DNA from: Escherichia coli
Lineage (GTDB): Bacteria > Pseudomonadota > Gammaproteobacteria > Enterobacterales > Enterobacteriaceae
NCBI RefSeq assembly: GCF_030013205.1
Contig: NZ_CP122648.1
Reading direction: 5' to 3' (one strand)
DNA length: 64,000 nt
Shown here: one piece after another, positions 6,001 to 12,000 of the stretch
How the letters are laid out: each line of letters starts with the position of its first letter
Numbering within the stretch: position 1 is the stretch's first letter
Position numbers: made by a program

Positions 6001-9000
6001 GCAGCAGGCTTTCGCGACTGGCGCGAGACAAATATAGATTATCGTGCTGAAAAACTGCGTGATATCGGTAAGGCTCTGTGCGCCCGTAGCGAAGAAATGG
6101 CGCAAATGATCACCCGTGAAATGGGCAAACCGATCAACCAGGCGCGTGCTGAAGTGGCGAAATCGGCGAATTTGTGTGACTGGTATGCAGAACATGGTCC
6201 GGCGATGTTGAAGGCGGAACCTACGCTGGTGGAAAATCAGCAGGCGGTTATTGAGTATCGTCCGTTGGGGACGATTCTGGCGATTATGCCGTGGAACTTT
6301 CCGTTATGGCAGGTGATGCGTGGCGCTGTTCCCATCATTCTTGCAGGTAACGGTTACTTACTTAAACATGCGCCGAATGTGATGGGCTGTGCACAGCTCA
6401 TTGCCCAGGTGTTTAAAGATGCGGGTATCCCACAAGGCGTATATGGCTGGCTGAATGCCGACAACGACGGCGTCAGTCAGATGATTAAAGACTCGCGCAT
6501 TGCTGCTGTCACGGTGACCGGAAGTGTTCGTGCGGGAGCGGCTATTGGCGCACAGGCTGGAGCGGCACTGAAAAAATGCGTACTGGAACTGGGCGGTTCG
6601 GATCCATTTATTGTGCTTAACGATGCCGATCTGGAACTGGCGGTTAAAGCGGCGGTAGCCGGACGTTATCAGAATACCGGACAGGTTTGTGCAGCGGCAA
6701 AACGCTTTATCATCGAAGAGGGAATTGCTTCGGCATTTACCGAACGTTTTGTGGCAGCTGCGGCAGCCTTGAAAATGGGCGATCCCCGTGACGAAGAGAA
6801 CACTCTCGGACCAATGGCTCGTTTTGATTTACGTGATGAGCTGCATCATCAGGTGGAGAAAACCCTGGCGCAGGGTGCGCGTTTGTTACTGGGCGGGGAA
6901 AAGATGGCTGGGGCAGGTAACTACTATCCGCCAACGGTTCTGGCGAATGTTACCCCAGAAATGACCGCGTTTCGGGAAGAAATGTTTGGCCCCGTTGCGG
7001 CAATCACGATTGCGAAAGATGCAGAACATGCACTGGAACTGGCTAATGATAGCGAGTTCGGCCTTTCAGCGACCATTTTTACCACTGACGAAACACAGGC
7101 CGGACAGATGGCGGCACGTCTGGAATGCGGTGGGGTGTTTATCAATGGTTATTGTGCCAGCGACGCGCGAGTGGCCTTTGGTGGCGTGAAAAAGAGTGGC
7201 TTTGGTCGTGAGCTTTCCCATTTCGGCTTACACGAATTCTGTAATATCCAGACGGTGTGGAAAGACCGGATCTGACGCTACATATTCAGCTCTGATATAC
7301 TCGCAGGTCTTTTCAGACCTGCGGTCCAGGAGTAGAAAGTGGCAGTCGCCATGGATAATGCAATTTTAGAAAACATCTTGCGGCAAGTGCGGCCGCTCAT
7401 TGGTCAGGGTAAAGTCGCGGATTATATTCCGGCGCTGGCTACGGTAGACGGTTCCCGATTGGGCATTGCTATCTGTACCGTTGACGGACAGCTTTTTCAG
7501 GCCGGAGACGCGCAAGAACGTTTTTCCATTCAGTCTATTTCCAAAGTGCTGAGTCTCGTTGTCGCCATGCGTCATTACTCCGAAGAGGAAATCTGGCAAC
7601 GCGTCGGCAAAGATCCGTCTGGATCACCGTTCAATTCTTTAGTGCAACTGGAAATGGAGCAGGGTATTCCGCGTAATCCGTTTATTAATGCCGGTGCGCT
7701 GGTGGTCTGCGATATGTTGCAAGGGCGATTAAGCGCTCCTCGGCAACGTATGCTGGAAGTCGTGCGCGGCTTAAGCGGTGTGTCTGATATTTCCTACGAT
7801 ACGGTGGTAGCGCGTTCCGAATTTGAACACTCCGCGCGAAATGCGGCTATCGCCTGGCTGATGAAGTCGTTTGGCAATTTCCATCATGACGTGACAACCG
7901 TTCTGCAAAACTACTTTCATTACTGCGCTCTGAAAATGAGCTGTGTAGAGCTGGCCCGGACGTTTGTCTTTCTGGCTAATCAGGGGAAAGCTATTCATAT
8001 TGATGAACCTGTGGTGACGCCAATGCAGGCGCGGCAAATTAACGCACTGATGGCGACCAGTGGTATGTACCAGAACGCGGGGGAGTTTGCCTGGCGGGTG
8101 GGACTACCGGCGAAATCTGGCGTTGGTGGCGGTATTGTGGCGATTGTTCCGCATGAAATGGCCATCGCAGTCTGGAGCCCGGAACTGGATGATGCCGGTA
8201 ACTCGCTTGCGGGCATTGCTGTCCTTGAACAATTGACGAAACAACTAGGGCGTTCGGTTTATTAATGCAGTCTCTCGATCCACTCTTCGCGCGTTTATCC
8301 CGTTCAAAATTTCGCTCTCGGTTTCGTTTGGGCATGAAAGAGCGTCAGTATTGTCTGGAGAAAGGCGCGCCAGTCATCGAACAACATGCGGCGGATTTTG
8401 TCGCTAAACGTCTTGCTCCGGCATTACCGACTAATGACGGTAAGCAAACCCCCATGCGCGGGCATCCGGTGTTTATCGCTCAGCACGCCACTGCAACCTG
8501 TTGTCGCGGTTGTCTGGCTAAGTGGCATAACATTCCGCAGGGTGTTTCGTTAAGCGAGGAACAACAACGTTATATCGTGGCGGTAATCTATCACTGGTTG
8601 GTTATACAGATGAATCAGCCATGATAATTGCGGAAAACGATAAAATAGCATTCCCAGGATATCTTTATTTGCTGCCGCTGTCAGCGAACATGCTATCCTT
8701 TATAAGAATTTACTTATTACGTTGAGATAATTGCCACCCGCAATTGTATGGACAGATAATTAATGCATGTACAGCCCATTTCAACTTTCCGTTTGTTCCA
8801 GGAAGGTCATCTGCTACGTAATAGCATCGCTATTTTTGCGCTAACCACGCTGTTCTATTTTATTGGTGCAGAGTTACGGCTGGTTCACGAACTTTCTCTT
8901 TTCTGGCCGCTGAATGGCGTAATGGCGGGGGTGTTTGCCCGCTATGTCTGGCTTAATCGACTGCATTACTATGCGATCAGTTATGTGGCAATGCTGGTTT

Positions 9001-12000
9001 ATGATGCCATAACCACCGAATGGGGGCTGGTTTCACTGGCTATCAATTTCTCCAATATGATGTTTATTGTTACCGTCGCCTTACTGGTCGCGCGGGATAA
9101 GCGTCTGGGGAAAAATAAGTACGAGCCAGTAAGTGCCTTACGGCTATTTAATTACTGTCTGATTGCCGCATTATTATGCGCTATTGTCGGGGCGATTGGT
9201 TCGGTCAGTATTGATAGTCTGGATTTCTGGCCTTTGCTTGCCGACTGGTTCAGTGAGCAATTCTCAACGGGCGTGTTGATAGTGCCTTGTATGCTGACGT
9301 TGGCAATTCCTGGAGTGCTGCCGCGCTTTAAAGCAGAACAGATGATGCCCGCTATCGCGCTTATTGTGTCGGTTATTGCCTCGGTAGTCATTGGCGGAGC
9401 GGGGAGTCTGGCGTTCCCGCTGCCTGCATTAATCTGGTGTGCCGTGCGCTATACGCCGCAGGTAACATGTCTGTTGACCTTTGTCACCGGTGCGGTGGAA
9501 ATCGTACTGGTGGCAAATTCGGTGATTGATATCTCGGTCGGTTCGCCGTTCTCCATTCCGCAAATGTTCTCCGCACGTCTCGGTATTGCCACGATGGCGA
9601 TATGCCCAATTATGGTTTCTTTTAGCGTGGCAGCGATCAATTCGCTAATGAAGCAAGTTGCGCTGCGAGCCGACTTTGATTTTCTGACTCAGGTTTACTC
9701 ACGGTCCGGTCTTTATGAGGCGCTGAAAAGTCCATCGCTGAAACAGACACAACATCTGACTGTCATGCTGCTTGATATCGACTATTTCAAAAGCATTAAC
9801 GATAACTATGGACATGAATGTGGCGATAAAGTGTTAAGCGTGTTTGCCCAGCATATTCAGAAGATTGTCGGTGATAAGGGGCTGGTGGCGCGAATGGGCG
9901 GCGAAGAATTTGCTGTTGCAGTGCCATCGGTGAATCCTGTCGATGGTCTGCTAATGGCGGAAAAAATCCGTAAAGGCGTTGAACTGCAACCGTTCACCTG
10001 GCAACAAAAAACGCTTTATCTCACGGTAAGTATTGGCGTCGGTAGTGGTTGCGCATCGTACCGAACGCTGACCGATGACTTTAATAAATTGATGGTCGAA
10101 GCCGATACATGTCTGTATCGCTCGAAGAAAGATGGGCGCAACCGTACCAGCACTATGCGTTACGGTGAGGAAGTTGTCTGACATCTTTATTCATTCACAG
10201 CGAATTAAATGCAATGTGTTCTACCACTTTATGTTCGAAGAAAAGGCGTATTTCCTCAATTAAACCATGATCCGCGCCACACTTTTCTCATAAAACTGCT
10301 CATTAATCATCAGGAGTTGATCAAAACAGGGGTTCGGCGTATTAAAGCTTGCTAACCTGTCGTACCAATTCAAACAGGTTGTATGACTAATCAGAAGGGA
10401 ACCCATTGTGAAAACACTAAATCGTCGCGATTTTCCCGGTGCACAGTATCCAGAACGTATCATTCAGTTTGGTGAAGGTAACTTCCTGCGCGCCTTTGTT
10501 GACTGGCAAATCGATCTCCTGAATGAGCACACCGATCTGAATTCTGGCGTGGTCGTTGTTCGTCCGATTGAAACTTCATTCCCGCCGTCATTGAGCACGC
10601 AGGATGGTCTGTACACCACCATTATCCGTGGTTTGAATGAGAAGGGGGAGGCGGTCAGCGACGCGCGTCTGATTCGCTCGGTTAATCGTGAAATCAGCGT
10701 CTACAGTGAATACGATGAATTCCTGAAACTGGCGCACAACCCGGAAATGCGCTTTGTTTTCTCTAACACCACCGAAGCGGGTATCAGCTACCATGCGGGC
10801 GATAAATTCGATGACGCGCCAGCGGTAAGTTATCCGGCAAAACTGACCCGTCTGCTGTTCGAACGTTTTAGCCATTTCAACGGAGCGCAGGATAAAGGTT
10901 GGATCATCATCCCATGTGAACTGATCGACTATAACGGCGATGCACTGCGTGAACTGGTGCTGCGCTACGCGCAAGAGTGGGCACTACCAGAAGCATTTAT
11001 TCAATGGCTGGATCAGGCTAACAGCTTCTGTTCTACGCTGGTGGACCGTATCGTTACCGGTTATCCGCGTGATGAAGTGGCTAAACTGGAAGAAGAACTG
11101 GGTTATCACGATGGTTTCCTCGACACCGCTGAACACTTTTACCTGTTTGTGATTCAGGGTCCGAAATCCTTAGCGACTGAACTGCGTCTGGACAAATATC
11201 CGCTCAACGTGCTGATTGTTGACGATATTAAACCGTACAAAGAACGCAAAGTGGCAATCCTCAACGGTGCGCACACCGCGCTGGTTCCGGTGGCGTTCCA
11301 GGCAGGGCTGGATACCGTAGGTGAAGCGATGAACGATGCTGAAATTTGCGCATTCGTTGAAAAGGCCATCTACGAAGAAATTATTCCGGTACTGGATTTG
11401 CCACGTGATGAACTGGAATCTTTCGCCAGTGCAGTCACCGGACGTTTCCGTAACCCGTACATCAAACATCAGTTGCTATCTATCGCCCTCAACGGTATGA
11501 CCAAGTTCCGCACCCGCATCCTGCCGCAACTGCTGGCAGGGCAGAAGGCAAACGGCACACTTCCGGCGCGCCTTACTTTCGCATTAGCGGCATTGATTGC
11601 GTTTTATCGCGGTGAGCGTAATGGAGAAACATATCCGGTACAGGACGATGCACATTGGCTGGAACGTTATCAGCAACTCTGGAGCCAGCATCGTGACCGT
11701 GTTATCGGTACCCAGGAACTGGTAGCGATTGTTTTGGCAGAAAAAGACCACTGGGAGCAGGACCTGACGCAAGTGCCTGGTCTGGTCGAGCAGGTGGCTA
11801 ATGACCTGGATGCGATTCTCGAAAAAGGAATGCGCGAAGCTGTACGTCCGTTGTGCTAATACTCTGAACCCGGTTTCGACCGGGTTTCTTATTTTACTAT
11901 ATTAGTTACAACATCCTATGTGCCTTTATCATTAACGGGTGCCATATGCCACACCTGTAAATGTTGTAAGCTTGTAGGTAATTTGTACGTAGCGTCTTGA

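What the first reader, a model, noticed from the sequence alone, without database searches (positions are those of the whole stretch)
8763..10181. DgcF encoded with a long N-terminal membrane domain
The ORF is 472 aa with about 300 aa of multi-pass membrane sequence ahead of the GGDEF domain. My recollection is that the K-12 annotation is shorter, so this strain (or a corrected start) may encode a sensor-linked full-length cyclase.
Basis: partly seen in the sequence, partly recalled or inferred. Interest (0 to 1): 0.25.

Follow-up and report, generated by a model that had tools for sequence, protein, structure and literature searches.

The report
Full-length DgcF; K-12 copy is truncated
This E. 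coli strain carries the normal full-length gene for the membrane-anchored c-di-GMP synthase DgcF; the shorter K-12 version comes from a published 498-base deletion in the K-12 lineage, so the finding is correct but ordinary.

Summary
Window 8763..10181 (+) is a 472-aa ORF: about 300 aa of multi-pass membrane sequence, then a GGDEF domain with an intact GGEEF active site and no RxxD inhibitory site.

The K-12 annotation is indeed shorter (b1522, 315 aa). The cause is not start-codon choice. K-12 and about 22% of complete E. coli genomes carry a clean 498-bp deletion (window 8698..9195). It removes 65 bp of upstream DNA and codons 1-144 (plus the first base of codon 145).

The long form is ancestral:
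- 4196 of 5426 E. coli genomes keep the segment.
- E. fergusonii, Citrobacter and Enterobacter have 472-479-aa orthologues in the same glsB-yneG-dgcF-uxaB context.
- dN/dS across the K-12-deleted part is 0.05-0.11.

Richter et al. 2014 (PMC4287979) already reported all of this.

Verdict: real, correctly read, already known, low interest.

The parts
8763..10181 (+). dgcF (yneF) coding sequence, full length, 472 aa plus stop
   Evidence: ORF list and sequence. Identical CDS WP_000558440.1 in ETEC4079. 311/315 identical to K-12 DgcF over aa 158-472.
8811..9647 (+). N-terminal membrane sensor domain (aa 17-295): ten predicted transmembrane helices, divergent MASE1-like
9669..10145 (+). GGDEF catalytic domain (aa 303-461)
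   Evidence: Pfam PF00990 E 4.5e-41. TIGR00254 E 4.5e-38.
9897..9911 (+). GGEEF active-site (A-site) motif, aa 379-383. The usual I-site position (aa 370-373) reads GDKG, not RxxD.
   Evidence: Read directly from the sequence. Same conclusion in PMC4287979.
8698..9195 (+). The 498-bp segment that is deleted in K-12 and about 22% of E. coli genomes. It covers 65 bp upstream of the ATG plus codons 1-144 and the first base of codon 145, i.e. helices 1-4 and nearly all of helix 5.
   Evidence: Alignment A1. BLAST matches of K-12-type genomes begin at window 9196. The segment is present in 4196 of 5426 genomes, while the locus is present in 5414.
9234..9236 (+). TTG (Leu158 here), which is the annotated start codon of the 315-aa K-12 DgcF
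8750..8752 (+). Weak Shine-Dalgarno-like GGA, 10 nt before the ATG. It lies inside an ATGGA block conserved in four genera.
   Evidence: Upstream alignment. Inference only.
8729..8745 (.). Perfect palindrome AATTGC-N5-GCAATT just upstream of dgcF. The arms are conserved in E. fergusonii and C. amalonaticus while the spacer varies. It may be a regulator-binding site.
   Evidence: Function not tested.
8687..8719 (+). Conserved upstream block AACATGCTATCCTTTATAAGAATTTACTTATTA. It includes GCTATCCTTTA (8692-8702), which resembles a sigma-S extended -10 element. The left breakpoint of the K-12 deletion (8697/8698) falls inside this block.
   Evidence: Upstream alignment and alignment A1. The promoter assignment is inference from published RpoS-dependent expression.
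8265..8624 (+). yneG (DUF4186), the upstream neighbour in conserved synteny
10408..11859 (+). uxaB (tagaturonate reductase), the downstream neighbour

Best explanation
Window 8763..10181 is the intact, ancestral allele of dgcF (yneF). It encodes an inner-membrane diguanylate cyclase with three parts. First comes a ten-helix, N-in/C-in membrane sensor domain (aa ~17-295), which is a divergent relative of MASE1. Next, one long helix (aa 265-304) runs from the last membrane span into the cytoplasm. It joins a GGDEF domain (aa 303-461) that has an intact GGEEF active site and no RxxD product-inhibition site. [quoted passage not shown] The shorter K-12 protein is not an annotation variant of the same gene. 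The K-12 lineage lost 498 bp (window 8698..9195), taking the proximal upstream region and codons 1-144 (plus one base of codon 145). K-12 therefore keeps a promoter-less, N-terminally truncated remnant, which was given a TTG start at the position of Leu158. Shown here: the ORF, the domains, the deletion and its frequency, conservation, purifying selection, and the predicted fold. Inferred: dimeric mechanism, signal transfer, topology, and the MASE1 and S-component relationships. Unknown: the signal.
For: ORF and upstream stop codon. GGDEF hit. GGEEF present and no RxxD. Clean 498-bp deletion in K-12 AB1157 and strain AZ155, with the same sequence read across the junction in MG1655. All seven sampled partial matches begin at window 9196. 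K-12-type alleles are annotated as a pseudogene missing its N-terminus, and MG1655 b1522 is 315 aa. The deleted segment is present in 4196 of 5426 genomes, against 5414 that have the locus. Orthologues of 472-482 aa occur in E. fergusonii, Citrobacter, Enterobacter and Lelliottia with 98-100% coverage of the membrane domain. The glsB-yneG-dgcF gene order is the same in three other genera; uxaB follows immediately in E. fergusonii, after one small ORF call in C. amalonaticus, and after two extra genes in E. cloacae. Met1 sits at the same position in four genera. dN/dS is 0.05-0.11 for aa 1-145, as low as in the GGDEF domain. The AF2 model has pLDDT 91.3. MASE1 link: 48 of 81 family members hit PF05231, the best at 43 bits against a cut-off of 29.8. 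hhalign against the DgcE MASE1 domain gives 88-91% probability and E about 1e-6 over about 215 columns, while five unrelated membrane proteins score 0.2% or less and a reversed control scores 0.4%. Relatives of the same domain are fused to hybrid histidine kinases. Literature: PMC4287979 reports the K-12 5' deletion, the start misannotation, the ~300-aa hydrophobic domain, an intact A-site, no I-site, and weak RpoS-dependent expression. S. flexneri dgcF raises c-di-GMP in a GG-dependent way (PMC11327459). CFT073 yneF-deletion phenotypes are rescued by the cyclase WspR (PMC3484386). K-12 DgcF was the only one of four overexpressed membrane cyclases that failed to inhibit motility (PMC10127611).
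Against: There is no direct evidence in this strain for translation from ATG 8763, for the topology, or for enzyme activity. The Shine-Dalgarno-like sequence is weak (GGA), and reported expression is very low. The window protein itself does not match Pfam MASE1 even at E<=10. hhalign against a three-sequence MASE1 alignment falls to 63%, and UhpB and PdeF alone are not significant. I did not check whether the Shigella and CFT073 alleles used in the cited experiments are the long form.
Confidence: 0.9

Rival explanations
1. Annotation artefact only: K-12 has the same DNA and the true start was simply mis-called, so 'long' and 'short' DgcF are one gene with two annotations.
For: The K-12 start is an unusual TTG with no evident ribosome-binding support. 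The literature speaks of 'start codon misannotation'.
Against: K-12 AB1157, strain AZ155 (alignment) and MG1655 (junction sequence) physically lack window 8698..9195. The segment has no match in about 1218 genomes that do have the locus. PGAP flags the K-12 allele as N-terminally incomplete.
Confidence: 0.01
2. Strain-specific gain: the long N-terminus arose in this strain or lineage by insertion or fusion of foreign membrane-protein DNA, and the K-12 form is ancestral.
For: None beyond the length difference.
Against: 77% of complete E. coli genomes carry the segment. Full-length orthologues lie in the same glsB-yneG-dgcF context in E. fergusonii, C. amalonaticus and the E. cloacae complex. 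The domain-plus-GGDEF architecture recurs in hundreds of 50%-identity clusters.
Confidence: 0.01
3. The long ORF exists, but translation really starts at an internal codon (for example Met54, Met77 or Met99/100, or further downstream), so most or all of the membrane domain is not made.
For: Weak Shine-Dalgarno-like sequence before ATG 8763. Several in-frame ATG/GTG codons downstream. Very low reported expression.
Against: dN/dS of 0.05-0.11 over aa 1-145 in three species comparisons shows selection on the protein sequence. Most of the invariant or nearly invariant polar membrane residues (R39, W48, P49, N51, R60, D81, N98) lie in this part. The Met1 position and the stop codon just upstream are conserved. 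The AF2 model packs helices 1-5 confidently with 6-10.
Confidence: 0.04
4. The membrane domain is mainly a transporter-like or anchoring module rather than a signal sensor. In that case the S-component-like fold reflects substrate transport or mere membrane tethering.
Against: The same domain is fused to GGDEF domains and hybrid histidine kinases, the hallmark of a sensor module. It relates to MASE1, a known sensor family. The S-component fold is already known in the pyruvate-sensing kinases BtsS and YpdA (PMC11109136). Neither an ECF module partner nor the AxxxA docking motif was examined.
Confidence: 0.05

Closest known systems
Full-size YneF/DgcF of non-K-12 E. coli, as described by Richter, Povolotsky et al. 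2014 (EMBO Mol Med, PMC4287979)
   Same: Same gene and same architecture: a ~300-aa hydrophobic N-terminus plus a GGDEF domain with an intact A-site and no I-site. Same explanation for the short K-12 form, namely a 5' deletion that led to start misannotation.
   Different: Nothing of substance. [quoted passage not shown] Here it appears remotely related to the MASE1 domain of DgcE.
E. coli K-12 DgcF (b1522, NP_416039.1, 315 aa)
   Same: 311/315 identical over aa 158-472. Same locus between yneG and uxaB.
   Different: K-12 lacks window 8698..9195, which holds the upstream region, helices 1-4 and nearly all of helix 5. Its annotated TTG start lies inside helix 6. PGAP treats the K-12-type allele as a pseudogene.
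MASE1 membrane sensor domain (Pfam PF05231), as in E. coli DgcE, PdeF (YfgF) and UhpB
   Same: About 300 aa and about ten membrane helices at the N-terminus of signalling proteins. The conserved FWPxN motif in helix 2 resembles LWFPTS in DgcE. Profile match to DgcE is 88-91%. 48 of 81 relatives hit the Pfam model. Output domains vary (GGDEF or histidine kinase).
   Different: The window protein itself does not reach the Pfam threshold, or any reported score. There is no significant profile match to UhpB or PdeF alone.
S-component fold of ECF transporters (RibU, ThiT, BioY, FolT, BtuM) and the 5TMR-LYT sensor kinases BtsS/YpdA (Partipilo & Slotboom 2024, PMC11109136)
   Different: Ten helices rather than six or seven. 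No sequence similarity to any solved structure. Foldseek found nothing significant. That paper does not mention MASE1. Which helices match could not be determined.

Membership tests
GGDEF-domain diguanylate cyclases (Pfam PF00990) | Domain match above the curated threshold | tested here: met
   140.7 bits against a cut-off of 23.8, aa 303-461, full model length. TIGR00254 130.6 bits.
GGDEF-domain diguanylate cyclases (Pfam PF00990) | Intact GG(D/E)EF active-site motif | tested here: met
   GGEEF at aa 379-383, window 9897-9911.
GGDEF-domain diguanylate cyclases (Pfam PF00990) | RxxD allosteric I-site five residues before the GGDEF motif (typical of the family, not obligatory) | tested here: not met
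   aa 370-373 read GDKG. This agrees with PMC4287979.
GGDEF-domain diguanylate cyclases (Pfam PF00990) | c-di-GMP synthesis from GTP | not testable with these tools
   Literature only: S. flexneri dgcF raises c-di-GMP and its GG-to-AA mutant does not (PMC11327459).
DgcF/YneF orthologue group | Near-identity to K-12 DgcF and the same chromosomal position (yneG-dgcF-uxaB) | tested here: met
   311/315 identities. Gene order confirmed.
MASE1 (Pfam PF05231) | Match to the Pfam model at or above the gathering score of 29.8 bits | tested here: not met
   No MASE1 hit for aa 1-303 even at E<=10. E. coli DgcE, UhpB and PdeF score 128, 62 and 243 bits.
MASE1 (Pfam PF05231) | Homology shown through intermediates or profiles | tested here: inconclusive
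   48 of 81 homologues hit MASE1 at E<=0.01, the best (P0227) at 43.3 bits, above threshold. P0227 matches the window domain at E 2.2e-16. hhalign against DgcE gives 88-91%, but only 63% against a three-sequence MASE1 alignment. Controls score 0.4% or less.
MASE1 (Pfam PF05231) | N-terminal polytopic membrane domain of about 300 aa, coupled to varied signalling outputs | tested here: met
   Ten-helix model. Relatives carry GGDEF or HisKA-HATPase-REC(-Hpt) outputs.
ECF S-component fold | Six-helix membrane bundle that superposes on solved S-components | tested here: inconclusive
   [not shown]
ECF S-component fold | AxxxA motif in helix 1 and partnership with an EcfT/EcfA module (transport function) | not tested
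   Not examined. No ECF-module gene adjoins dgcF in the annotation: its neighbours are yneG and uxaB.

The most novel reading that the evidence does not exclude
The DgcF membrane domain heads an unrecognised, divergent branch of the MASE1 superfamily: about 400 clusters at 50% identity that the current Pfam model largely misses. Its core adopts the ECF S-component fold. If bona fide MASE1 domains share this fold, then MASE1 sensors (DgcE, UhpB, PdeF and others) would join the 5TMR-LYT kinases as 'transceptor-fold' receptors. They would probably bind a small molecule inside the membrane, using the conserved polar residues R39, N51, R60, D81 and N98, which are exactly the part K-12 has lost.
Probability: 0.4. 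Interest if true: 0.4.

Novelty: already known. Interest (0 to 1): 0.1.

Why it matters
The practical point is a caution for anyone using K-12. Its dgcF is a promoter-less, N-terminally truncated remnant, so K-12 results on DgcF (no expression, no motility effect) do not carry over to the roughly three-quarters of E. coli strains, and to Shigella, that are described as having an intact enzyme. In those bacteria the gene has been linked to biofilm formation, adherence, acid sensitivity and invasion. The signal sensed by the membrane domain is still unknown. The tentative MASE1 and S-component link suggests looking for a small-molecule ligand.

Tried and rejected
- **Pfam on the N-terminus.** A scan of aa 1-303 at E<=10 gave only a meaningless SAYSvFN hit.
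- **Foldseek vs AFDB50.** The library was not available.
- **Foldseek vs PDB.** Nothing significant; best E 1.4.
- **Profile search against PDB sequences.** No relative with a solved structure.
- **Counting deletion alleles with a 101-nt junction-spanning query.** This failed because the tool joins pieces up to about 550 bp apart, so intact alleles also scored 100%. I replaced it with a search using the deleted segment alone.
- **Internal 5+5 helix duplication.** hhalign of the two halves gave 0.6% probability, so this was rejected.
- **Promoter and terminator scan of 8200-10450.** Five promoter-like sites against 4.0 expected, and no terminators, so uninformative.
- **Rfam on the whole window.** No hits.
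- **Profile matches to UhpB and PdeF MASE1 as single sequences.** Not significant.
- **Povolotsky & Hengge 2016 (J Bacteriol 198:111).** This paper probably tabulates the allele across strains, but it could not be read by DOI or by PMC id.
- **Allele differences from the common E. coli protein** (Q4, D81, A110, Q267, Q363, C430 against the cluster representative P0009). All lie at variable positions, or match the family consensus in the case of D81. None looks disabling.
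Full report
**Observation.** Window 8763..10181 (+) is an uninterrupted 472-codon ORF. 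It starts at an ATG that follows an in-frame TAA at 8757-8759, so it cannot extend further upstream. Pfam finds one domain, GGDEF, at aa 303-461 (E 4.5e-41), and NCBIfam agrees. The first ~300 residues are strongly hydrophobic. The gene lies between yneG (8265..8624) and uxaB (10408..11859), downstream of sad and glsB. This is the E. coli dgcF (yneF) locus. The whole 64-kb window is identical to E. coli ETEC4079 chromosome NZ_CP122643.1 2559729-2623728. There PGAP annotates the same CDS as WP_000558440.1, 'sensor domain-containing diguanylate cyclase'.

**Comparison with K-12.** MG1655 RefSeq b1522 dgcF is 315 aa. It aligns to residues 158-472 of the window protein with 311/315 identities, and its TTG start corresponds to Leu158 (window 9234-9236). 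The difference is not a matter of annotation.
- A DNA alignment of the window with K-12 AB1157 and strain AZ155 shows a clean 498-bp deletion equal to window 8698..9195. The MG1655 sequence reads the same across the junction.
- The deletion removes 65 bp upstream of the ATG plus codons 1-144 and the first base of codon 145.
- PGAP marks such alleles as a pseudogene, 'incomplete; missing N-terminus'.
- Among 5426 complete E. coli genomes, 5414 have the locus and 4196 have the 498-bp segment. About 1218 genomes (22%) therefore carry the truncation.
- All seven partial matches in an evenly spaced sample begin at the same base, window 9196. This suggests a single ancestral event.

**Which form is ancestral, and is the N-terminus translated?**
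- Orthologues of 472-482 aa that cover 98-100% of the membrane domain at 72-87% identity occur in E. fergusonii, Citrobacter, Enterobacter and Lelliottia.
- E. fergusonii, C. amalonaticus and the E. cloacae complex all have the glsB-yneG-dgcF gene order. uxaB follows directly in E. fergusonii, after one small ORF call in C. amalonaticus, and after two additional genes in E. cloacae.
- The initiator Met aligns at the same position in all four genera. Residues 2-8 vary, and conservation begins at about residue 9.
- Nei-Gojobori dN/dS for the part missing from K-12 (aa 1-145) is 0.05 against E. fergusonii and 0.11 against C. amalonaticus. This is as low as in the GGDEF domain (0.06-0.12). The first 16 residues are relaxed (0.4-0.75).
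Direct start-site mapping has not been done here.

**Anatomy.**
- AlphaFold2 with an 81-sequence alignment gives a confident model (pLDDT 91.3, pTM 0.84). It has ten helices: 17-40, 49-60, 67-84, 89-114, 122-147, 155-179, 191-210, 213-229, 232-251 and 265-304. The last helix runs straight into the GGDEF domain.
- The charge distribution fits an N-in/C-in topology. By my count, about 15 Lys/Arg lie on the cytoplasmic side, including the RDKRLGKNK loop at 111-119. Only the conserved R39 and R272 lie on the outer side.
- The active site is GGEEF (aa 379-383). The I-site position reads GDKG, not RxxD.
- Most of the invariant or nearly invariant polar residues in the membrane (R39, W48, P49, N51, R60, D81, N98) lie in helices 1-4, the part K-12 has lost.

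**What the membrane domain is.** The window protein has no Pfam match there, even at E<=10. An exhaustive phmmer search with aa 1-295 found 401 representative clusters at E<=1e-3. Most are 460-490 aa, consistent with the same domain followed by GGDEF; the 81 I took into alignment A2 all have GGDEF. Three hits longer than 650 aa that I checked are hybrid histidine kinases. That mix of outputs is typical of a sensor module. Evidence for a MASE1 relationship:
- Of the 81 homologues, 48 hit Pfam MASE1 (PF05231) at E<=0.01.
- The best, P0227, scores 43.3 bits over the full model, against a threshold of 29.8. It matches the window domain at E 2.2e-16.
- A profile of the DgcF family aligns to the bona fide MASE1 domain of E. 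coli DgcE (128 bits to Pfam MASE1). The probability is 88-91% and E is 1e-6 to 3e-6 over ~215 columns.
- Five unrelated membrane proteins from the window score 0.2% or less, and a reversed control scores 0.4%.
- Support is not uniform. UhpB and PdeF alone are not significant, and a three-sequence MASE1 alignment gives 63%.

I conclude that the domain is probably (about 80%) a divergent MASE1-superfamily member. [quoted passage not shown] DgcE is likewise described as having ten membrane spans in its first 300 residues.

**Function.** The following comes from the literature, not from tests here.
- Full-size yneF from an O104:H4 strain is expressed weakly and mainly RpoS-dependently, and K-12 yneF is not expressed (PMC4287979).
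- S. flexneri dgcF raises c-di-GMP in a GG-dependent way and affects acid sensitivity, invasion and plaque size (PMC11327459).
- CFT073 yneF deletion lowers biofilm formation in glycerol medium and lowers adherence. The cyclase WspR rescues these phenotypes (PMC3484386).
- Overexpressed K-12 DgcF, unlike DgcC, DgcE and DgcJ, did not inhibit motility (PMC10127611).

These results fit an active, membrane-regulated cyclase that K-12 has effectively lost. I did not verify that the Shigella and CFT073 alleles are the long form.

**Upstream region.** Two elements between yneG and dgcF are conserved in Escherichia and Citrobacter.
- The first is a block at 8687-8719 that contains GCTATCCTTTA. By my reading this resembles a sigma-S extended -10 element.
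- The second is a perfect palindrome, AATTGC-N5-GCAATT, at 8729-8745.

The K-12 deletion starts inside the first block and removes the second. This fits the reported lack of expression, but the promoter assignment is inference. The consensus promoter scan was at chance level.

**Novelty and verdict.** The finding is real and correctly interpreted in its main reading. The K-12 truncation, its cause and the architecture of the full-size protein were published in 2014. The long allele is the common, ancestral one rather than a feature of this strain. The only additions here are the frequency estimate, the selection analysis, the probable MASE1 affiliation and the tentative S-component fold. Interest is low.

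Noticed in passing
[not shown]
   Followed up: partly
window 8729-8745 and 8687-8719: Two elements upstream of dgcF are conserved in E. coli, E. fergusonii and C. amalonaticus: a perfect palindrome AATTGC-N5-GCAATT and a block containing GCTATCCTTTA. The K-12 deletion breakpoint (8697/8698) lies inside the second element. They may be a regulator site and a sigma-S promoter.
   Followed up: partly
L001 (K-12 AB1157, NZ_CP076404.1) 2500-4463: This K-12 substrain has a second deletion that joins the 3' part of dgcF to uxaB. dgcF is annotated as missing both termini and uxaB as missing its N-terminus.
   Followed up: no
proteins P0003, P0008 (HipA domain) and P0058 (bestrophin domain): In some E. 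coli assemblies the DgcF N-terminal membrane domain (98-99% identical) is fused to a HipA or a YneE/bestrophin C-terminus. This implies larger deletions running from inside dgcF to hipA (window ~28254-29576) or to yneE (12056-12970). The locus looks deletion-prone.
   Followed up: no
window 22985-27777: A large ECSE_1600-family autotransporter gene is split by a frameshift into ORFs 22985-23458 and 23482-27777. It is annotated as a pseudogene in the identical ETEC4079 record.
   Followed up: no
window 29974-37865: A run of decaying genes: a frameshifted LysR-type regulator (29974-30871), an amidohydrolase split into two small CDSs (33244-33805), a frameshifted carboxymuconolactone decarboxylase (36406-37196) and a truncated HTH regulator (37599-37865). 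Intact aldo/keto reductases and oxidoreductases lie among them.
   Followed up: no
window 38298-44660: An apparently complete chaperone-usher fimbrial operon: a fimA-like major subunit, a chaperone, an 883-aa usher, then ydeS, ydeR and ydeQ. From memory, K-12 has only a truncated version of this operon. I did not check this.
   Followed up: no
window 52137-54598: An IS1 element (transposase on the - strand, about 53276-53973) interrupts an ABC transporter ATP-binding/permease gene, which lies at the position of yddA (gene name from memory). N- and C-terminal fragments are annotated as pseudogenes in the identical ETEC4079 record.
   Followed up: no
L011 (E. cloacae complex) 4560-5525: In Enterobacter a second cyclase gene (GAF-GGDEF, 321 aa) and an acetyltransferase gene sit between dgcF and uxaB. 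They are absent from the Escherichia locus.
   Followed up: no
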